Part shown: positions 22,445 to 52,226 of the stretch, one piece after another
Layout: each line of letters begins with the position of its first letter
How positions within the stretch are numbered: position 1 is the first letter of the stretch
DNA from: Escherichia coli
GTDB lineage: Bacteria > Pseudomonadota > Gammaproteobacteria > Enterobacterales > Enterobacteriaceae
Length of the DNA: 64,000 nucleotides
Reading direction: 5' to 3' (one strand)
NCBI RefSeq assembly: GCF_003018235.1
Contig: NZ_CP027437.1
Notes under the pieces: generated by a model
What the model was told of the DNA's origin: nothing
Database searches by the model: none
What the model saw: only the letters and a program-made list of their open reading frames with translations
Made by a program: the position numbers and the translations under genes

Positions 22445-23906
<1,462 letters not shown>

Positions 23907-44628: not shown

Positions 44629-47220
44629 ATGCATCAATCTGGTTCTGTTTCTCTTTGTCGTTCCGCAATATCTGTTCTGGTGGCTACAGCGTTATATTCA
44701 CCCATAGCATTGGCATCAACAGTTGAGTATGGTGAGACAGTTGATGGTGTTGTCCTGGAAAAAGATATCCAGCTGGTTTATGGGACCGCCAATAATACGA
44801 AAATCAATCCTGGCGGAGAACAGCATATTAAAGAATTTGGTATAAGTAGTAATACTGAAATTAACGGCGGGTATCAGTACATTGAAATGAATGGCACCGC
44901 AGAATACTCAGTATTAAATGATGGTTATCAAATTGTTCAAATGGGTGGTGCGGCAAACCAGACTACCCTCAATAATGGTGTGCTACAGGTTTATGGCGCA
45001 GCGAATGATACTACCATTAAAGGCGGGCGCTTAATTATTGAAAAAGATGGGATTACCGTCTTTGCCGCTATCGAAAAGGGAGGATTACTGGAGGTTAAAG
45101 AGGGGGGGTTAGCATTTGCGGTAGATCAGAAAGCCGGCGGTGCTATTAAAACAACCACGCGGGCCATGGAGGTATTCGGAACAAACCGTCTCGGTCAGTT
45201 CGATATCAAGGATGGTATTGCTAATAATATGTTGTTGGAAAACGGCGGAAGTTTGCGAGTTGAAGAAAATGACTTCGCTTATAATACCACTGTGGATAAT
45301 GGCGGCTTACTGGAGGTTATGGATGGCGGGACTGCAACTGGCGTTGATAAAAAAGCAGGCGGAAAATTAATTGTCTCAACGAATGCGCTGGAAGTGAGTG
45401 GTACAAACAGTAAAGGCCAATTTAGTATAAAAGATGGTGTGTCCAAAAATTATGAACTGGATGATGGTTCCGGGCTCATTGTTATGGAGGACACGCAGGC
45501 CATTGACACTATCCTTGATGAGCATGCCACTATGCAATCGCTGGGAAAGGATACTGGTACGAGAGTGCAGGCAAATGCGGTATATGATCTCGGTCGATCA
45601 GATCAGAATGGAAGTATCACGTATTCCTCTAAAGCCATCTCTGAAAATATGGTTATCAACAATGGCCGCGCTAATGTCTGGGCTGGCACAATGGTTAACG
45701 TTTCAGTCAGAGGGAATGATGGCATTCTTGAGGTCATGAAGCCGCAAATAAATTATGCACCCGCTATGTTGGTGGGTAAGGTAGTGGTTTCTGAGGGCGC
45801 TTCTTTTAGAACGCATGGTGCCGTGGATACCAGCAAAGCGGATGTTTCGCTCGAAAATAGCGCATGGACCATCATTGCCGATATCACTACGACGAACCAA
45901 AACACTCGCCTCAACTTAGCCAACCTTGCGATGTCTGGCGCAAATGTGATTATGATGGCTGAGCCAGTGACTCGTTCATCTGTGACGGCAAGTGCGGAAA
46001 ATTTCACTACGTTGACCACCAATACCCTATCGGGAAACGGCAATTTTTATATGCGTACCGATATGGCTAATCATCAGAGCGATCAGCTCAACGTCACCGG
46101 TCAGGCAACAGGTGATTTCAAAATATTCGTTACGGACACCGGTGCCAGCCCGGCAGCAGGTGATAGCCTTACACTGGTAACAACGGGCGGCGGTGATGCT
46201 GCATTTACGTTGGGCAATGCCGGAGGCGTTGTTGATATCGGTACGTATGAATATACCTTGCTGGATAATGGCAACCATAGCTGGAGCCTCGCAGAGAATC
46301 GCGCGCAAATTACCCCTTCAACCACTGATGTGCTGAATATGGCGGCAGCACAACCGCTGGTATTTGATGCAGAACTGGACACCGTGCGTGAGCGTATTGG
46401 TAGCGTAAAAGGCGTTAATTACGATACGGCGATGTGGAGTTCGGCAATTAACACCCGCAACAACGTGACCACTGATGCGGGAGCTGGCTTTGAGCAAACA
46501 TTGACCGGGCTGACGCTCGGTATCGATAGCCGTTTCTCCCGTGAAGAAAGCAGCACAATTCGCGGCTTGTTCTTTGGTTACTCTCATTCTGATATTGGTT
46601 TTGATCGCGGCGGCAAAGGTAATATCGATAGCTATACCCTGGGGGCTTATGCTGGTTGGGAGCATCAGAACGGTGCCTATGTTGATGGGGTGGTGAAAGT
46701 TGACCGTTTTGCCAACACTATCCATGGCAAGATGAGTAATGGGGCAACAGCGTTTGGCGATTACAGTAGTAACGGCGCGGGTGCTCATGTCGAGAGCGGG
46801 TTCCGTTGGGTTGACGGATTGTGGAGTGTTAGACCCTATCTGGCCTTTACCGGCTTTACCACAGATGGTCAGGACTACACGTTATCAAACGGCATGCGCG
46901 CGGATGTGGGAAATACCCGCATATTACGCGCTGAAGCGGGAACAGCGGTAAGCTATCACATGGACCTGCAAAACGGTACGACGCTGGAACCCTGGCTGAA
47001 AGCCGCCGTACGTCAGGAATACGCCGATTCTAACCAGGTGAAAGTTAATGACGATGGCAAATTTAATAATGATGTGGCTGGAACCCGTGGCGTTTATCAG
47101 GCTGGGATAAGGTCATCGTTTACCCCGACGTTAAGCGGTCATTTGTCTGTCAGCTATGGCAATGGCGCAGGGGTAGAATCACCGTGGAATACTCAGGCGG
47201 GTGTGGTCTGGTCGTTCTGA
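44629..47220 (+). CDS. yejO: autotransporter adhesin-like protein YejO, apparently intact
   Basis: 863-aa ORF with signal peptide, repetitive passenger domain (G/N/T-rich repeats) and C-terminal beta-barrel ending in aromatic residue (VVWSF). Confidence 0.8.
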   Translation: MHQSGSVSLCRSAISVLVATALYSPIALASTVEYGETVDGVVLEKDIQLVYGTANNTKINPGGEQHIKEFGISSNTEINGGYQYIEMNGTAEYSVLNDGYQIVQMGGAANQTTLNNGVLQVYGAANDTTIKGGRLIIEKDGITVFAAIEKGGLLEVKEGGLAFAVDQKAGGAIKTTTRAMEVFGTNRLGQFDIKDGIANNMLLENGGSLRVEENDFAYNTTVDNGGLLEVMDGGTATGVDKKAGGKLIVSTNALEVSGTNSKGQFSIKDGVSKNYELDDGSGLIVMEDTQAIDTILDEHATMQSLGKDTGTRVQANAVYDLGRSDQNGSITYSSKAISENMVINNGRANVWAGTMVNVSVRGNDGILEVMKPQINYAPAMLVGKVVVSEGASFRTHGAVDTSKADVSLENSAWTIIADITTTNQNTRLNLANLAMSGANVIMMAEPVTRSSVTASAENFTTLTTNTLSGNGNFYMRTDMANHQSDQLNVTGQATGDFKIFVTDTGASPAAGDSLTLVTTGGGDAAFTLGNAGGVVDIGTYEYTLLDNGNHSWSLAENRAQITPSTTDVLNMAAAQPLVFDAELDTVRERIGSVKGVNYDTAMWSSAINTRNNVTTDAGAGFEQTLTGLTLGIDSRFSREESSTIRGLFFGYSHSDIGFDRGGKGNIDSYTLGAYAGWEHQNGAYVDGVVKVDRFANTIHGKMSNGATAFGDYSSNGAGAHVESGFRWVDGLWSVRPYLAFTGFTTDGQDYTLSNGMRADVGNTRILRAEAGTAVSYHMDLQNGTTLEPWLKAAVRQEYADSNQVKVNDDGKFNNDVAGTRGVYQAGIRSSFTPTLSGHLSVSYGNGAGVESPWNTQAGVVWSF

Positions 47221-47313: not shown

Positions 47314-47392
47314 GGGATTTTTGCACGAGAGTAGTTTAATTGAGTATGTAACTACATGATTTAAAATAATTTGTCTAATTCAACTTTTAAAC

Positions 47393-47417
47393 CGTATAAC
47401 CAAACGTATAACTAAAA
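47393..47417. repeat. CGTATAAC(TAAA) repeat pair at the yejO-proximal end of the island
   Basis: cCGTATAACcaaaCGTATAACTAAAA; the same motif recurs four times at 57463-57519 near the integrase. Confidence 0.6.
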
Positions 47418-47620: not shown

Positions 47621-47902
47621 TTACCGCCGTAACCGCTCCGGCTTCTTCCAGTGGTAGGTAATTTTTTCTTTCTCCCGATACATCTCCACGCGGCGCTTGT
47701 AGGCCAGCATTTCAAGAACGCGGATCCGTATGTCGCGCATATCCACATCATTAAGCTGGATACCATCACGGCGCATCACCTCAGCAACCACACACGCATA
47801 ATTTTCGGCGGTCACGCAGTCCGGCTGCGTAGCCTGTTCGTCAGCCTGCTGGCTGATTCCGGCAACTCGGCGGATTAATCGCAGTAGTTCGGCTTCTGTC
47901 AT
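47621..47902 (-). CDS. hypothetical protein, 93 aa, island-borne
   Basis: ORF from the supplied track, downstream (minus sense) of conserved repeat copy 1; no family recognised. Confidence 0.4.
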   Translation of the reverse strand: MTEAELLRLIRRVAGISQQADEQATQPDCVTAENYACVVAEVMRRDGIQLNDVDMRDIRIRVLEMLAYKRRVEMYREKEKITYHWKKPERLRR

Positions 47903-48063
47903 TGTGCCCCCTCGCGCTGGTTAAGAAAACAAGCTCAGATTTTTTGTAAAGAATCTGTCACGCTAAAAGATGTCGAACAAAAAACAATCACCTTCATCAT
48001 CTTTTTTACATAAAAACAATTAAAAACAATAATTTACATACATGATGATGATGGCGATAAAAT

Positions 48064-48140
48064 CATAAAAATGCGCTTTTTTCCGCGCCGACCCGCCCCG
48101 TGGACAGGCCCACCCCACCAGGAGGACCCGCAAAAAAGGC
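48064..48140. repeat. conserved GC-rich element of about 65 bp, copy 1 (abuts the capsid-gene terminator)
   Basis: TGCGCTTTTTTCCGCGCCGACCCGCCCCGTGGAcaggCCCACCccACCAGGAGGACCCgCAAAAAAG, about 85% identical to 50604-50690 by eye. Confidence 0.6.
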
Positions 48141-48169
48141 GGCATATTTGCCGCCCTGTAAACTGTGTA

Positions 48170-50065
48170 TCAGCCGGAAGCCGTACCGCTCGATTTGACC
48201 ATGCCGCGATAGTCCAGCGCGGCCACACCGGCATCAATACGAACCTTCCAGGCGACACCGTCAACGATGAAGCCTTCCTGCTGTTCAAGGTAAGGCTCGT
48301 CATTACCATCAAGATAAGCCACCTCGATTGTGTCCGTTCCCTGTGCTGAAAGCATGTACCATTGATTCACACTAACATCATCCAGACGAGGATCGACAAT
48401 AATATCCAGTAGCTTGTGATACGGGTTAAATATGCCGCTGTTTTTATCGGCCCCGAAAGGTGCGGTTGAATTAATCATTTGCAACGCGCGATCTTCCAGT
48501 GCTGCCGGAACTAACAGGAATTTAGGTGCAATGTTCAGCACCTCGCCGTTTTTATCTTTCTGTATGCGCATAGCGTGACGTGCTGCACTAAGCCCCGGCG
48601 TCGTCATGCCAAGATCGATAAGGTTGTTGTGTTTTTTATCAAACAAGGCCACACCATCAGACAGCTTGCCGTTTCCTGTAAGTACCAGATTAACCAGATT
48701 GCCAACCGTTCTGGCTGCTGCACGCCCCATAGCCATTGGCACGGTAGACAACTGATCAAGGTCATCATTGATTATCGCCTGGCGGGTAATACTGAAAATA
48801 TTCCCGTATGTAGCCAGCGCGATTGGCTCACCGCGATCGCTGGTGGTGATGTATTTATATTCTGCCCCTTCCGGCACTTTGTTTAATGTTGAAAAACCAT
48901 TCAGGCCAACGCGGCGGGCTTCACGGAAGTTTGACAGAGAACCTTTTTTAGTCCACTGGCGGAATGTTTCGCCGCTGTGCTCCCAGCCTGCCAGCACTGA
49001 TTTTTCAGCGCCACCAGCCAGGATGTAAGTAAAATCGCTGCTGCTGTGAGTGAATGCCGCATTAACAATCTGCGAACGCGTGCTGTAGCTGCCTGTGCTT
49101 ATGCCACGATGGGTTAATGATGCCTGTGCCATATCGAAAAGGCTCATCATGGCGTAAGGATTGCCGCGTTCGGCCTGTTCGTGACCAAGACGTGCGTTAA
49201 GCCCCTGACGCATGGCATCGCCGGTTATGTTGCCGTTATCCGTATACGCGTAGTAAAGATTTGCGGGGGTGTTTTTGTTGGTGGGTGTCGATTCCTTGCC
49301 CATAGCCAATAAAAGGCGTTCGCGCGCATCCTCAACGCTACAACCTGCGTCTGCCAGGCAGTTAATAGCCAGGTCGTTATATTTCCCGTTGAACGTGCCA
49401 AACAATTCGCGAATGCCGTTTAGTCGTTCCTGTTCGCCGCTGGCTTTGTTCTGGTTGATCATGTTTTTGATACTTTCCGGCATATTTGAAAAATCTCCGA
49501 TTCGTTTTGATTCAATTCTGGCCATTGCTGTAATCGCGGGTATAACCTCATCTGCGAAGCCGTTAGCCTTACACTCATTGCCATCCATCCAGGTTTCCGC
49601 CTCCATCATGGCGGTGATTTCCTGTTTGCTTTTTCCCGTTCTTCCGGCGTAGGTTTCCGCCATCGTGTCGCCCAGCTTGTCCATCAGGTCAGCAAAGCGG
49701 CGAACGTCGCCCGACACGCCAGAAGTAACACCACGGGGGGCATGTATCATCATCATTGCGTTAGCGGGCATCACGATGTGATCGCCACACATGGCAATAA
49801 ACGAGGCCATAGAAGCCGCTATGCCTTCAATGTGTACGATTTTTTTCGCCGGATGATTTTTCAGGGCGTTATAGATAGCCAGCCCCTGAAAGATGTCGCC
49901 GCCTGGTGAATGGATACGCAAATGGATTTCAGACACGTCACCACACGCGCTTATCTGGTCGGTTAATGTTGACGCCTGTACACCGTAACCGCCTATTTCG
50001 TCATAAATGCGAACGTGAAGGGCGTCGGCTTTTGCCTGTATGCTGTACCAGGATTTCATAGCCAT
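48170..50065 (-). CDS. phage prohead protease (ClpP/S49-like) fused to HK97-fold major capsid protein, 631 aa
   Basis: N-terminal part resembles ClpP-type head maturation proteases (HSPGGDIFQGLAIYNAL ... ASMASFIAMCGD); C-terminal part resembles HK97-family major capsid proteins. Assignment by sequence resemblance from memory. Confidence 0.65.
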   Translation of the reverse strand: MAMKSWYSIQAKADALHVRIYDEIGGYGVQASTLTDQISACGDVSEIHLRIHSPGGDIFQGLAIYNALKNHPAKKIVHIEGIAASMASFIAMCGDHIVMPANAMMMIHAPRGVTSGVSGDVRRFADLMDKLGDTMAETYAGRTGKSKQEITAMMEAETWMDGNECKANGFADEVIPAITAMARIESKRIGDFSNMPESIKNMINQNKASGEQERLNGIRELFGTFNGKYNDLAINCLADAGCSVEDARERLLLAMGKESTPTNKNTPANLYYAYTDNGNITGDAMRQGLNARLGHEQAERGNPYAMMSLFDMAQASLTHRGISTGSYSTRSQIVNAAFTHSSSDFTYILAGGAEKSVLAGWEHSGETFRQWTKKGSLSNFREARRVGLNGFSTLNKVPEGAEYKYITTSDRGEPIALATYGNIFSITRQAIINDDLDQLSTVPMAMGRAAARTVGNLVNLVLTGNGKLSDGVALFDKKHNNLIDLGMTTPGLSAARHAMRIQKDKNGEVLNIAPKFLLVPAALEDRALQMINSTAPFGADKNSGIFNPYHKLLDIIVDPRLDDVSVNQWYMLSAQGTDTIEVAYLDGNDEPYLEQQEGFIVDGVAWKVRIDAGVAALDYRGMVKSSGTASG

Positions 50066-50250
50066 GCCCCTAACGTGTGCCCATACCAGTACTCTACCGC
50101 GCTGCGTGCAATTTGCCCTTTGGTCGGTACTGGCATTCCTGGGTGATTTTCCCTTATGAACTGCTGATAGCGTTCAATCTTCTCCATCGTTCCGGCGTCT
50201 ATGTGCACTGTTGCGCTTTTATCCGGTTTTCTGGTGTTGTTCTCTGGCAT
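50056..50250 (-). CDS. hypothetical small protein (64 aa from the internal ATG with GGAGG RBS), upstream of and overlapping the capsid gene
   Basis: ORF 50056..50283; ACGGAGG sits 8 nt upstream of the ATG at 50250. Confidence 0.4.
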   Translation of the reverse strand: MPENNTRKPDKSATVHIDAGTMEKIERYQQFIRENHPGMPVPTKGQIARSAVEYWYGHTLGAWL

Positions 50251-50444
50251 AAATCCGCCTCCGTTTTGATTAACGGGCATCATTATTGATCGATAAAAGT
50301 AATAGATAAATCATTTTCTACCTAAAAATCAGATTATGATTTTTCTGATTATTTCGAGAAAAGCAAATCATTTGACGCATTATTGCTATTTTGGCAATAT
50401 TAAGTCTCATTCATTCCGGTAGTAGAAGTTCGTTTGTCGTACTA

Positions 50445-50481
50445 AAGCGCCTCCGGTAGCACCATCGGGGGCGCTTTTTTT
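50445..50481 (+). terminator. orphan plus-strand rho-independent terminator inside the island
   Basis: GCGCCTCCGG-tagcaccat-CGGGGGCGC followed by T7; there is no plus-strand ORF upstream of it. Confidence 0.45.
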
Positions 50482-50603
50482 GTGCCTGTTTTTTTTGTAA
50501 ATATTTTCGGGAATGTTCCAGTGGTGAACAAAAAACAACCATAATCGACACTGAAATTTTTATCAGCCAAATATATCAATAAGTTATGTTAGTGGTGATG
50601 GTG

Positions 50604-50690
50604 CCATAAAAATCAAAAAATGCGCCTTTTTCCGCGCCGACCCGCCCCGTGGATGCCCCCACCAACCAGGAGGACCCACAAAAAAGCCGG
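50604..50690. repeat. conserved GC-rich element of about 65 bp, copy 2 (abuts the terminator of the int2/PerC-like unit)
   Basis: TGCGCCTTTTTCCGCGCCGACCCGCCCCGTGGAtgccCCCACCaaCCAGGAGGACCCaCAAAAAAG; the adjacent hairpin differs between the two copies but the block is conserved. Confidence 0.6.
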
Positions 50691-50708
50691 ATTGCTCCGG
50701 CTGTGTGC

Positions 50709-50984
50709 TCACTTCTGCGGGTAGTTGCGCCATACTGCTTTACCAATACCAGCTATCCCCATTTGTTTTTCAGTGCGATTAACTGACCTTTTCAGAGCGC
50801 CTAAATCATCCGGCGGCTCCGGTGGCCTCTGTGCCTTCCTGGAACATTCCTGCCGTCGCATTGCCACCTGTGCGCGTTCCTTGTCTGTCTCCACCAGCAT
50901 CATCACTTCACCCCATCGCGCCGCCGCCCTCCTGTAAAATCCTTTCGCCTCGAGTTCCTCCGCTATACGGTCATGTACCATCAT
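50709..50984 (-). CDS. small regulatory protein, possibly PerC family, 91 aa
   Basis: N-terminal IAEELEAKGFYRRAAARW resembles the PerC/Pch motif as I recall it; overlaps the int2 stop by 4 bp. Family call is tentative. Confidence 0.4.
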   Translation of the reverse strand: MMVHDRIAEELEAKGFYRRAAARWGEVMMLVETDKERAQVAMRRQECSRKAQRPPEPPDDLGALKRSVNRTEKQMGIAGIGKAVWRNYPQK

Positions 50985-51994
50985 TCACCACCTCCCGCAG
51001 ATGGCGATAAGCTGGCTTTGCCTCCAAGTGGATTAAACCTTATCGCCTCTGTCAGAAAATCCGGCGCAAAATGCGCGTAAACCATTGTCTGTTGTATGCT
51101 CGCGTGCCCCAGTATCCTTTGCAGTGTGATTATATTCCCCCCGTTCATCATGAAATGTGTCGCGAATGTGTGCCGTAATACGTGGGTGGCCTGGCCTTTT
51201 GGTAAGTCCGGTTTTACTGACTTGATGACCTCCCTGAACTCCAGATAATCCACATCAAACAACTGTCCCTTTTTACCTCTCGTTACAAGTTCCAGAACGT
51301 CATCAGACACCGGAACAGCTCGCGCCCGTCCGTTCTTCGTCTCCGTAAACATTACCTTGTTACTGACTATATTTTCCCGTCGTAGCGTCGATGACTCCCC
51401 ATAACGCGCCCCCGTCGAAAGACACAAAACAGCCAGCGCGAGACAGTCGCCTTTGGCAATATTCAGTAAATGATTAACCTCATCATCACCAAGAAAACTC
51501 ATAGCCTTGTTTGGTGCTTTCAGCTTGCGTAATCCACTCAAAGGGTTTTCACCGTGATACATACCGCATTCGATTAGCCCCCTGAACATTCCTGATATAA
51601 CCGACAAATCACGGTTAACAGTCAACGGACTAAGGCCGCATCCCAGCTTGTCGGCTCTGTATTCCATGAGCATTGCGCGGGTTATGTTGCAGATTCGTGG
51701 ATCCCCCATTTCACGGATAACCTTCATCATGCGCATAAACGATTGTTCGCCGTATTCCTCCGATCTTCCGATAAACTCCATCCATAAGTTAGCCAGATCA
51801 GATAACAGGCGAATATCTGCGGCGCGTGACTCCCAGGGCTTATTATGACAATGAAGCAGTATGTATTTTTCGTAATCACGGGCTTTTGTCTGCGAGGGAA
51901 AAATCTTTCTTATCCGTCGCCCGTAAGCGCCATTTGGCCTTACGTCAACCAGCCAGCGACCATCCTCACACTTCCTTATCGCCATGCTCCACAC
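50981..51994 (-). CDS. tyrosine site-specific integrase/recombinase, 337 aa (second integrase in the island)
   Basis: C-terminal catalytic region with HVLRHTFATHFMMNGGNIITLQRILGHASIQQTMVYAHF (R..HxxR..Y signature); size is typical of P2-type integrases. Confidence 0.8.
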   Translation of the reverse strand: MWSMAIRKCEDGRWLVDVRPNGAYGRRIRKIFPSQTKARDYEKYILLHCHNKPWESRAADIRLLSDLANLWMEFIGRSEEYGEQSFMRMMKVIREMGDPRICNITRAMLMEYRADKLGCGLSPLTVNRDLSVISGMFRGLIECGMYHGENPLSGLRKLKAPNKAMSFLGDDEVNHLLNIAKGDCLALAVLCLSTGARYGESSTLRRENIVSNKVMFTETKNGRARAVPVSDDVLELVTRGKKGQLFDVDYLEFREVIKSVKPDLPKGQATHVLRHTFATHFMMNGGNIITLQRILGHASIQQTMVYAHFAPDFLTEAIRFNPLGGKASLSPSAGGGE

Positions 51995-52226
51995 CCTTAA
52001 CGTTGATGGTTGTTACCTGTTCCGCTTCGGCTATCTCCCGTTCGGTCAGCGTGGCAAAGTTTGCCGCCGCTGTGGTCATGAATGCGCTTATCAGTTCGGG
52101 ATGTGCTTTCGCGTATCCTTCTCCCGTGTTGCGGTCTATCGTTCTGATTGCCACCTTTAAGGCGTGCTCTGTCATGTCTAATGCGCGATATTTTGGCGCT
52201 GCCTTATCTCTGGTTTTTCTGGTCAT
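51966..52226 (-). CDS. hypothetical small protein, 86 aa
   Basis: ORF between the replication ATPase and int2, overlapping the int2 start; no family recognised. Confidence 0.35.
   Translation of the reverse strand: MTRKTRDKAAPKYRALDMTEHALKVAIRTIDRNTGEGYAKAHPELISAFMTTAAANFATLTEREIAEAEQVTTINVKGVEHGDKEV

What the first reader, a model, noticed from the sequence alone, without database searches (positions are those of the whole stretch)
50709..51994. Second tyrosine integrase (337 aa) with overlapping PerC-like small gene inside the island
Two integrases of different types in one 10-kb island suggest tandem or nested insertion of two elements, or capture of a recombinase as cargo. The overlapping small gene downstream (MMVHDRIAEELEAKGFYRRAAARW...) resembles PerC-family activators. 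These are known to cross-regulate host virulence genes in pathogenic E. coli, so the unit could be a regulatory module rather than an active recombination system.
Basis: partly seen in the sequence, partly recalled or inferred. Interest (0 to 1): 0.5.

Follow-up and report, generated by a model that had tools for sequence, protein, structure and literature searches.

The report
Orphan P2-type integrase inside a phage satellite
The 10-kb island is an ordinary E. coli phage satellite (a PICI) whose PerC gene is standard equipment. Its "second integrase" is an intact P2-phage-type recombinase gene, swapped without any attachment site into a slot that normally holds an SSB gene, and other satellites carry a gene of the same kind in the same place.

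Summary
Window 50981-51985(-) encodes an intact tyrosine recombinase, most likely 334 aa rather than 337. Window 50709-50984(-) encodes a full-length PerC-family protein (Pfam E 7e-39), and the two genes overlap by 4 nt.

The setting is an EcCICFT073-type phage-inducible chromosomal island (PICI) of about 10.3 kb at tRNA-Pro. PerC is a backbone gene of this PICI family. It is present with or without the recombinase, and this is already published.

The recombinase (Int2) belongs to the P2/HP1 family. It is an ORF-exact replacement in the slot between an 86-aa gene and perC, which usually holds SSB or nothing. No att-like repeats, attP arm or noncoding DNA came with it, so nested or tandem insertion is rejected and cargo capture is supported.

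Int2 is not decaying. All catalytic residues are kept, and dN/dS is 0.075 against an 88%-identical copy in the same slot. Diverged alleles sit just downstream of the replication module in other E. coli and Salmonella PICIs and in P4-like satellites. Integration sites follow the primary integrase.

My best reading is a domesticated recombinase that is expressed with the helper-induced operon and acts in trans. Its target is unknown.

The parts
47323..47331 (.). Left copy of the primary att core (GCACGAGAG). It sits within a degenerate copy of the tRNA-Pro 3' end.
   Evidence: Read directly. The same 9-mer lies at 57656-57664 inside the tRNA. This is an inferred boundary and was not checked against an empty site.
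47392..47417 (.). Arm-type repeat (CGTATAAC x2) for the primary integrase. A partner copy lies at 57494-57519.
   Evidence: Direct-repeat family D7, 96% identical and 10,102 bp apart. The role is inferred.
47621..47902 (-). 93-aa conserved PICI gene (phrog_1561), the last gene of the island.
   Evidence: It is present in all sister islands.
48054..48142 (.). cos-like repeat B, directly downstream of the capsid gene.
   Evidence: 84-85% identical to the copy at 50603-50690. It is conserved in sister PICIs.
48170..50065 (-). ClpP-like prohead protease / major capsid protein fusion (the PICI 'capsid morphogenesis' gene).
   Evidence: NF045540 at 881 bits. The best phage relatives, at 52%, are lambdoid cos phages.
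50056..50283 (-). Small conserved gene (phrog_4934), translationally coupled to the capsid gene. It is annotated as 64 aa in relatives.
50603..50690 (.). cos-like repeat A, directly downstream of perC.
   Evidence: 88% identical over 114 nt to phage 1720a-02 at 23069-23182, just upstream of the ORF that precedes its large terminase gene. It also matches the genome ends of mEp460. EcCICFT073 has two functional cos sites (PMC6092414).
50685..50702 (-). Intrinsic terminator hairpin plus T-run that ends the replication/Int2/PerC transcription unit.
   Evidence: The hairpin is conserved in sister islands.
50709..50984 (-). PerC-family small regulator, a backbone gene of this PICI family.
   Evidence: Pfam PF06069 at E 7e-39 over its full length. 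It is annotated as PerC in relatives whether or not Int2 is present.
50981..51985 (-). Int2: a P2/HP1-family tyrosine recombinase of 334 aa (the mechanical ORF runs to 51994). It is an accessory gene in the variable slot.
51966..52226 (-). 86-aa conserved PICI gene (phrog_1231). Its 3' end overlaps the Int2 start by 20 nt.
   Evidence: A 51%-identical homologue precedes Int2 in L109.
52230..52430 (.). Replication-origin iterons (CCTCACTTTT units, direct and inverted).
   Evidence: The layout matches the published GN-PICI ori located 3' of the replication gene (PMC6092414).
52428..53828 (-). RepA-family helicase (the PICI replication protein).
   Evidence: phrog_2850 at E 8e-253. Pfam AAA_25. 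Annotated as 'helicase RepA family'.
53825..54121 (-). DUF4222 protein.
55478..55684 (-). AlpA-family regulator (the PICI master activator in EcCICFT073).
   Evidence: Pfam Phage_AlpA and phrog_66. Function is taken from PMC6092414.
56190..57449 (-). Int1: the primary P4-type integrase next to the tRNA.
   Evidence: NF007246 at 554 bits. Pfam Arm-DNA-bind_3, Phage_int_M and Phage_integrase.
57650..57726 (-). tRNA-Pro(GGG), the integration target of the island.

Best explanation
Window ~47.32-57.66 kb is an EcCICFT073-type Gram-negative PICI, a phage satellite, integrated by its P4-type integrase (Int1) at tRNA-Pro.

Gene order on the minus strand is Int1, AlpA, small genes, RepA helicase, iteron origin, 86-aa gene, Int2, PerC and a terminator. 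After that come cos, the protease/capsid fusion, a second cos and a 93-aa gene.

PerC is a normal backbone gene of this PICI family and is not a partner of Int2.

Int2 is a complete P2/HP1-family integrase, with arm-binding, core-binding and catalytic domains. It was taken up as a bare ORF into the slot that normally holds an SSB gene, cut off from its attP exactly where P2-type arm repeats would begin. It is functional and maintained by selection.

Int2 does not set where the island integrates.

Inferred step 1: Int2 is co-transcribed with the replication genes only when a helper phage switches on AlpA.

Inferred step 2: because it has no cognate site in cis, it acts in trans on DNA outside the island. 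The most plausible targets are att sites of P2/186-type (Cox-C-Int) prophages. Int2 could assist or sabotage their excision or integration during the satellite's induced cycle.
For: PICI identity:
- The gene set and order match published PICIs.
- The iteron origin is present.
- The two cos-like repeats match lambdoid cos phages at the position expected for cos.
- The same phages give the best capsid matches.
- Literature: PMC6092414, PMC10085698.

PerC as backbone:
- Pfam match.
- It is present next to SSB in many of the 1381 E. coli genomes that match this stretch, and directly after the 86-aa gene in L003.

Int2 as an ORF-only swap:
- The three-way alignment shows the boundaries.
- No repeats flank it.
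- Homology to prophage int genes stops inside the coding region, whereas prophages share ~105 bp beyond the stop codon.
- Prophage ints carry TGTCCAT..TGTCCAT arm repeats in their own 3' end. Int2 homology ends at FNPL just before these repeats (consensus from PMC3448106).
- The island has no such repeat pairs, with 4 hexamers against 4.7 expected.

Int2 as a functional gene:
- All catalytic residues are present in all satellite copies.
- dN 0.064, dS 0.85 and omega 0.075 against L012, the 88%-identical copy in the same slot.

Recurrence in other satellites:
- Same slot in L012, L026 (56%) and L109 (54%).
- Directly after the primase and origin in Salmonella PICIs.
- Directly after the primase in P4-like satellites.

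Integration site follows Int1:
- The identical Int2 allele P0005 rides on Salmonella PICIs with two different primary integrases at different sites.
- All P0001 contigs shown are at proL in canonical order.

Precedent for the trans idea:
- The Int2 of P4-like satellites has a core-binding domain 82% identical to a P88-like prophage Int.
- A PICI excisionase homologue supports excision of its helper prophage (PMC11773190).
- AlpA-dependent, helper-dependent expression of PICI genes is published (PMC6092414).
Against: - The trans-acting step is not shown.
- The core-binding domain of this Int2 is only 38-57% identical to any relative.
- The central 760 nt has no blastn relative in 5426 complete E. 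coli genomes other than the one sister island, so no candidate target prophage with a matching integrase is known.
- A representative of the likely helper family (phage 1720a-02) has an unrelated integrase, at 21% identity.
- Expression within the AlpA operon is inferred from gene order, overlapping start and stop codons, and the position of the terminator. It has not been measured.
- Bootstrap support for a single PICI-borne Int2 clade is modest, at 51-77%.
Confidence: 0.55

Rival explanations
1. Secondary integration module: Int2 lets the PICI integrate at a second chromosomal site when proL is occupied or absent.
For: Int2 is a complete integrase with intact catalytic residues. It is under purifying selection.
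Against: - No attP came with the gene.
- There are no P2-type arm repeats anywhere in the island.
- Every copy seen is at the Int1 site in canonical gene order.
- The same Int2 allele sits on Salmonella PICIs whose sites track different primary integrases.
- The gene lies in the helper-induced operon, which is off in a naive recipient (PMC6092414; inference).
Confidence: 0.15
2. Replication-linked role on the satellite's own DNA. For example, Int2 resolves multimers or processes replication intermediates, taking the place of the SSB accessory function.
For: In every satellite type, Int2 sits immediately downstream of the replicase and origin. In E. coli it replaces SSB.
Against: - No conserved site is shared only by Int2-bearing islands.
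- Sister PICIs manage with SSB or with an empty slot.
- Int2 alleles differ greatly in their DNA-binding domains while the flanking island DNA is ~90% identical.
- The position may simply be a permissive end-of-operon site.
Confidence: 0.15
3. Nested or tandem insertion of a second mobile element, of which Int2-PerC is the remnant.
For: There are two integrases of different families within 10 kb.
Against: - The boundaries of the swap are ORF-exact, with translational overlaps on both sides.
- There are no flanking direct or inverted repeats beyond chance.
- PerC and the 86-aa gene belong to the backbone of islands that lack Int2.
- The canonical neighbours of P2-type integrases (C repressor, Cox) are absent.
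Confidence: 0.03
4. Neutral hitch-hiker: a recently acquired integrase ORF with no selected function.
For: It is very rare, found in 1 of 5426 complete E. coli genomes. PADLOC finds no defence family.
Against: - omega is 0.075 at dS 0.85 between two copies in the same slot.
- Alleles 54-56% identical, all intact, occupy the same slot in other PICIs.
- The catalytic residues are invariant.
Confidence: 0.07

Closest known systems
EcCICFT073-type Gram-negative PICIs (Fillol-Salom et al. 2018, PMC6092414)
   Same: - int next to a dedicated att site.
- alpA, a replication gene and an iteron origin.
- A PerC allele.
- A capsid-related gene.
- Two cos sites that resemble those of lambdoid helpers.
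- About 10-15 kb, with no tail or lysis genes.
   Different: This island carries a second integrase, of the P2 type, where most relatives carry SSB. I found no description of this in the papers I searched.
Integrases of P2-like phages (P2, P88-like, 186, HP1)
   Same: - Same three-domain architecture and catalytic residues.
- 57.6% identity to P88-like phage integrases.
- Strong match to solved P2-family/HP1 integrase structures.
- As in this family, the core-binding domain is the variable part (PMC3448106).
   Different: - No adjacent C repressor or Cox.
- No attP, and the C-terminal tail that encodes the arm repeats has been replaced.
- It is not at an element boundary and does not determine the integration site.
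EcCIMP1 AlpA_1 / helper Kapi1 excision cross-talk (PMC11773190)
   Same: In both cases a PICI carries an extra recombination-module gene, related to phage genes, that is dispensable for the PICI's own excision. In EcCIMP1 the extra gene supports helper prophage excision in trans.
   Different: In EcCIMP1 the extra gene is an excisionase homologue, and the PICI integrase did not complement the helper's. Here the extra gene is a full integrase with no known matching helper.
PerC of EPEC pEAF and the Pch proteins of EHEC
   Same: Same Pfam family over the full length. Plasmid-borne PerC genes, presumably including the pEAF type, are about 44% identical.
   Different: The gene here is chromosomal and PICI-borne. 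PICI PerC homologues studied so far had no effect on LEE1 or repressed it (PMC11773190). Its role within the PICI cycle is unknown.
P4-like satellites
   Same: Icd-like and DUF4222 genes occur here, and Ash and derepression-type genes occur in related PICIs. A separate clade of P2-type second integrases sits after the primase in P4-like satellites that carry Ogr/Delta.
   Different: This island lacks Psu, Sid and Delta, and it uses lambdoid-type cos and capsid genes.

Membership tests
Tyrosine recombinase, P2/HP1 integrase family | Catalytic residues R, K, HxxR, H and Y | tested here: met
   All are present and aligned with prophage integrases.
Tyrosine recombinase, P2/HP1 integrase family | Domain architecture: N-terminal arm-binding domain, core-binding domain (Int_N) and catalytic domain | tested here: met
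   Pfam Int_N at E 1e-24 and Phage_integrase at E 3e-17. Full-length alignment to P2-like phage integrases. 5c6k at E 1e-85 and 1aih at E 4e-44.
Tyrosine recombinase, P2/HP1 integrase family | Canonical int-C-cox regulatory region, with attP arm repeats (tgTGGaCa) adjacent to or overlapping the int 3' end | tested here: not met
   No C or Cox in the window. Most of the 80 species-representative loci, and nearly all of the closer relatives, have C directly upstream. The arm-repeat tail is replaced and the island has no repeat pairs.
Tyrosine recombinase, P2/HP1 integrase family | Catalyses site-specific recombination between defined att sites | not testable with these tools
   This needs in vivo or in vitro recombination assays.
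PerC family (PF06069) | Full-length match to the family profile above threshold | tested here: met
   132.4 bits, E 7e-39, residues 2-90 against model positions 1-89 of 90.
PerC family (PF06069) | Activates LEE1/ler transcription | not testable with these tools
   Published PICI homologues vary from no effect to repression (PMC11773190).
Gram-negative PICI (EcCICFT073 type) | Integrase at one end next to a dedicated att site, followed by alpA in the same orientation | tested here: met
   Int1 at 56190-57449 next to tRNA-Pro, and AlpA at 55478-55684.
Gram-negative PICI (EcCICFT073 type) | Own replication protein followed by an iteron origin | tested here: met
   RepA helicase. Iterons at 52230-52430.
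Gram-negative PICI (EcCICFT073 type) | About 10-15 kb, no tail or lysis genes, and packaging signals that copy a helper's | tested here: met
   About 10.3 kb. The only structural gene is the protease/capsid fusion. The cos-like repeats match lambdoid cos regions.
Gram-negative PICI (EcCICFT073 type) | Helper-phage-dependent induction and transfer | not testable with these tools
   This needs induction and transduction experiments.
Nested or tandem second mobile element | Own att repeats or noncoding attP flanking the second integrase | tested here: not met
   The swap is ORF-exact. Only chance-level repeats are present. An 11-nt inverted repeat at the ORF ends is not conserved in relatives.
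Known anti-phage defence systems (PADLOC) | Match to any defence-system protein model | tested here: not met
   There were no hits for Int2, PerC or eight neighbouring proteins.

The most novel reading that the evidence does not exclude
Enterobacterial phage satellites of at least two families have repeatedly domesticated P2-type integrases stripped of their attP. The families are RepA/D5-type PICIs and P4-like elements with a Toprim/DUF927 primase. In this reading the integrases are expressed with the replication module and work in trans on prophage att sites. They might force excision of poorly excising P2-type helpers, or jam a competitor's integration. That would be a new class of satellite weapon or tool based on site-specific recombination.
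Probability: 0.3. Interest if true: 0.7.

Novelty: new variant of a known kind. Interest (0 to 1): 0.45.

Why it matters
The island and its PerC gene are textbook PICI features, so that part of the finding is ordinary.

The unusual part is an integrase that has no attachment site and does not decide where its element integrates, yet is kept intact by selection. Other satellites, some of them only distantly related, also carry one just downstream of their replication genes.

If it acts on helper or competitor prophages, it would add site-specific recombination to the known ways satellites manipulate phages. The others are capsid resizing, packaging redirection, derepression and late-gene transactivation. 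It would also extend the single published case of PICI-helper excision cross-talk.

The idea is directly testable with one deletion and a few lysogens.

Tried and rejected
- **Second att set around 50.6-52.3 kb.** Only the origin iterons, the two cos-like repeats (which flank the capsid module, not Int2) and chance-level short repeats were found.
- **11-nt inverted repeat at the two ends of the int2 ORF** (51001-51011 and 51975-51985). It looked like a possible inversion or cassette site. It is not conserved in L012, L026 or any other copy, and about 0.6 such pairs are expected by chance in this region.
- **attP carried along with int2.** There is no homology to prophage DNA beyond the coding sequence. 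There are no P2-type or 186-type arm repeats.
- **Int2-specific cis site elsewhere in the island.** Everything shared between Int2-bearing islands is also present in SSB-bearing islands.
- **Int2 as a copy of the helper's integrase.** The integrase of lambdoid phage 1720a-02 is unrelated. The central part of int2 has no nucleotide relative in E. coli genomes.
- **Defence-system membership.** PADLOC found none.
- **Close relatives across species.** A scan of species-representative genomes found none closer than 58%, and most of those are canonical prophage integrases.
- **Co-resident prophages.** I could not survey them in the genomes that carry this Int2.
Full report
**1. What is there**

The minus strand of window 47.3-57.7 kb carries a compact, one-directional gene set next to tRNA-Pro(GGG) at 57650-57726. 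In order it contains:

- a 419-aa ORF encoding a P4-type integrase (annotated as 413 aa in relatives), matching NF007246 at 554 bits
- a 77-aa gene
- AlpA
- a variable region with an Icd-like gene
- a 93-aa gene and a DUF4222 gene
- a RepA-family helicase
- an iteron region
- an 86-aa gene (phrog_1231)
- the integrase under study
- the PerC-like gene
- a terminator
- a ~90-nt repeat
- a small gene plus a ClpP-protease/major-capsid fusion (NF045540, 881 bits)
- a second copy of the ~90-nt repeat
- a 93-aa gene (phrog_1561)

These assignments rest.

The flanks are yejO and yejM. A 9-nt core (GCACGAGAG) from the tRNA 3' end recurs at 47323, inside a degenerate copy of that end. CGTATAAC arm-like repeats lie just inside both ends. 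This is the published layout of Gram-negative phage-inducible chromosomal islands of the EcCICFT073 type (PMC6092414, PMC10085698).

**2.

The 337-aa ORF matches Pfam Int_N and Phage_integrase. The 91-aa ORF matches Pfam PerC end to end at E 7e-39. The two genes overlap by ATGA.

The database protein, identical over 334 aa, and all homologues start at the internal ATG (MAIRK). The gene is therefore 50981-51985, and it overlaps the end of the 86-aa gene by 20 nt.

All catalytic residues are in place. The closest solved structures are an integrase chain, 5c6k (E 1e-85), and HP1 integrase. To my knowledge 5c6k is the P2 integrase, but the table says only 'Integrase'. The closest phage proteins are integrases of P88-like and other P2-like myoviruses, at 57.6% or less.

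The island therefore holds two integrases of different families: the P4-type Int1 and the P2-type Int2.

**3. PerC is backbone and Int2 is a cassette**

The stretch 50600-52300 finds relatives in 1381 of 5426 complete E. coli genomes. In the listed hits that span both flanks, the slot between the 86-aa gene and perC holds an SSB gene. In some islands, such as L003, it holds nothing. Only one genome (SCU-111) has the integrase.

A three-way alignment compared the window, an SSB-bearing island and an island with an empty slot. Homology runs to within ~30 nt of the end of the 86-aa gene and resumes at the perC ribosome-binding site. The integrase ORF, and nothing else, fills the gap.

No direct or inverted repeats beyond chance flank it. 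An 11-nt inverted repeat at the ORF ends is absent from relatives.

PerC in E. coli PICIs is already reported. Some alleles have no effect on LEE1 and one represses it (PMC6092414, PMC11773190). The 'nested or tandem element' idea and the 'Int2-PerC module' idea are therefore not supported. 'Recombinase captured as cargo' is supported.

**4. The two ~90-nt repeats are probable cos sites, not att sites**

The repeats at 48054-48142 and 50603-50690 are 84-85% alike.

The perC-proximal copy matches lambdoid phages such as 1720a-02, CP-1639, several Stx phages, VT1-Sakai and mEp460. The match is 88% over 114 nt for 1720a-02. In that phage it lies immediately upstream of the ORF that precedes the large terminase gene. 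In mEp460 records it lies at the genome ends.

The same phages give the best matches, at 52%, to the island's protease/capsid fusion. EcCICFT073 likewise has two functional cos sites (PMC6092414). This identifies the likely helper family. One member's integrase is unrelated to Int2, at 21% identity.

**5. Int2 came without an attachment site**

Prophage relatives (L018, L020, L022) share ~105 bp of homology beyond the int stop codon. Satellite copies share homology with them only inside the coding sequence.

In the prophages, two direct repeats, TGTCCAT(N)TGTCCAT, lie inside the last codons of int, in the tail ESVHKLSI. They fit the published P2-type arm consensus tgTGGaCa (PMC3448106). Int2 diverges from the prophage genes right after FNPL, just before these repeats, and carries a different tail.

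The island contains four TGTCCA/TGGACA hexamers against 4.7 expected, and no pairs. Nothing that is shared between Int2-bearing islands is missing from SSB-bearing ones.

**6. Int2 is maintained and it recurs**

The exact protein is indexed in 84 blocks of the assembly collection. In all eight places shown it sits in the same slot of the same proL island, even in variants with other segments changed.

An 88%-identical copy occupies the same slot in L012. Between the two copies dN = 0.064, dS = 0.85 and omega = 0.075.

More distant alleles occupy equivalent positions in other satellites:

| Locus | Identity to window Int2 | Element and arrangement |
|---|---|---|
| L026 | 56% | E. coli PICI at the mug/rpoD site with lambda E-, D- and Nu1-like genes; 86aa-Int2-PerC |
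| L109 | 54% | RepA-87aa-Int2 |
| L013-L015 | 65% | Salmonella PICIs; D5-type primase, iteron origin, Int2, no PerC |
| L016, L017, L024, L110, L111 | 57-60% | P4-like satellites; Toprim/DUF927 primase followed by Int2, some with a P2-capsid homologue and Ogr/Delta |

In a neighbour-joining tree, the PICI-borne copies group together with 51-77% bootstrap support. The copies in P4-like satellites nest beside P88-like prophage integrases. This suggests at least two captures.

By contrast, most of the 80 homologous loci from species-representative genomes, and nearly all of the closer relatives, have the canonical prophage context with the C repressor directly upstream.

**7. Int2 does not choose the integration site**

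The same Salmonella allele (P0005) rides on PICIs with two different primary integrases at different chromosomal sites. All copies of the window's allele that were shown are at proL, in canonical order.

**8. Domain pattern**

Between PICI alleles, identity by domain is as follows:

- arm-binding domain: 33-67%
- core-binding domain: 35-57%
- last catalytic segment: 82-94%

The window and L026 islands are ~90% identical in DNA up to the first ~30 nt of int2 and again from its last ~235 nt onward. The middle of the gene is unalignable by blastn. The alleles therefore differ mainly in the parts that read DNA. This is also how P2-like phage integrases vary (PMC3448106).

The Int2 of P4-like satellites (P0053) keeps 82% identity in the core-binding domain to a P88-like prophage integrase. 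The central 760 nt of the window's int2 has no nucleotide relative in any other complete E. coli genome.

**9. How it most likely works**

Shown:

- Int2 is an intact, selected P2-family recombinase gene.
- It lacks any cis site.
- It is embedded, with overlapping start and stop codons, between backbone genes, upstream of a terminator.

Inferred:

- It is transcribed with the replication genes only after a helper phage turns on AlpA, by analogy with EcCICFT073 (PMC6092414).
- It therefore acts during the induced cycle and in trans.

The most plausible substrates are att sites of P2/186-type prophage modules. Int2 would either help a helper prophage excise or disturb a competitor. Excision cross-talk between a PICI and its helper has a precedent in PMC11773190. 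From my own recollection of the P2 literature, unchecked here, P2 prophages excise poorly because Int is limiting.

I put about 0.35 on this trans-acting mechanism, within an overall 0.55 for the whole account. The rivals are as follows:

- secondary integration, 0.15, weakened by sections 5 and 7
- a replication-linked role on the satellite's own DNA, 0.15, suggested by the constant position after the origin but with no site found
- a neutral passenger, 0.07, contradicted by section 6
- a nested element, 0.03, contradicted by section 3

**10. Verdict**

The island and PerC are ordinary and already known. The attachment-site-less P2-type integrase is a rare accessory gene in this island but a recurrent one across satellites. 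I did not find it described. It is a new variant within a known kind of element, of moderate interest, and cheap to test.

Noticed in passing
window 48054-48142 and 50603-50690: Two ~90-nt direct repeats (84-85% identical) bracket the capsid module. They match the cos region of lambdoid phages (1720a-02, mEp460, Stx phages). They probably correspond to the cos1 and cos2 sites described for EcCICFT073.
   Followed up: partly
window 52230-52430: An iteron array (CCTCACTTTT units in direct and inverted orientation, spaced 83-85 bp) lies between the RepA helicase gene and the 86-aa gene. It is the likely PICI replication origin. Salmonella PICIs have a different iteron (TTATCTACC) at the equivalent place (L013 7600-8000).
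   Followed up: partly
window 54412-55473: The 353-aa mechanical ORF is probably not a gene. Relatives annotate only a short Icd-like gene on the minus strand here, plus small opposite-strand genes, including a YlcI/YnfO family protein (window 54776-55000, plus strand). This segment is the most variable part of the island among relatives.
   Followed up: no
L016, L017, L024, L110, L111 (Salmonella/E. coli satellites): This is a satellite type with a P4-type integrase, AlpA, a Toprim/DUF927 primase of ~890 aa and a P2-type second integrase, usually followed by toxin-antitoxin pairs. Some members also carry a homologue of the P2 major capsid protein and some carry Ogr/Delta. It looks like a P4-related family with its own capsid-protein homologue.
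   Followed up: partly
window 53472-53828 vs L013 5808-6200: The N-terminal ~130 aa of the RepA-type helicase are 41% identical to the N-terminus of the D5/DUF5906-type primase of Salmonella PICIs. This suggests a shared N-terminal module on otherwise different replication proteins.
   Followed up: no
window 44629-47220 (yejO): The autotransporter gene yejO next to the island is intact here (863 aa). It is truncated or a pseudogene next to the same island in SCU-111 and other strains.
   Followed up: no
window 50444-50477: A strong 14-bp GC-rich hairpin with a T-run on the plus strand, antisense to the island's genes, lies between the cos-like repeat and the capsid operon. It could terminate antisense transcription or form part of the packaging or regulatory region.
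   Followed up: no
L020, L022 (Salmonella/E. coli prophages): These prophages have a P2-type Int-C-Cox module joined to lambdoid-style early genes (RecE-like exonuclease, Ead/Ea22, DUF1627). They also carry DUF4222, Ash and derepression-type genes, which occur in the PICIs too. That indicates gene flow between these prophages and satellites.
   Followed up: no
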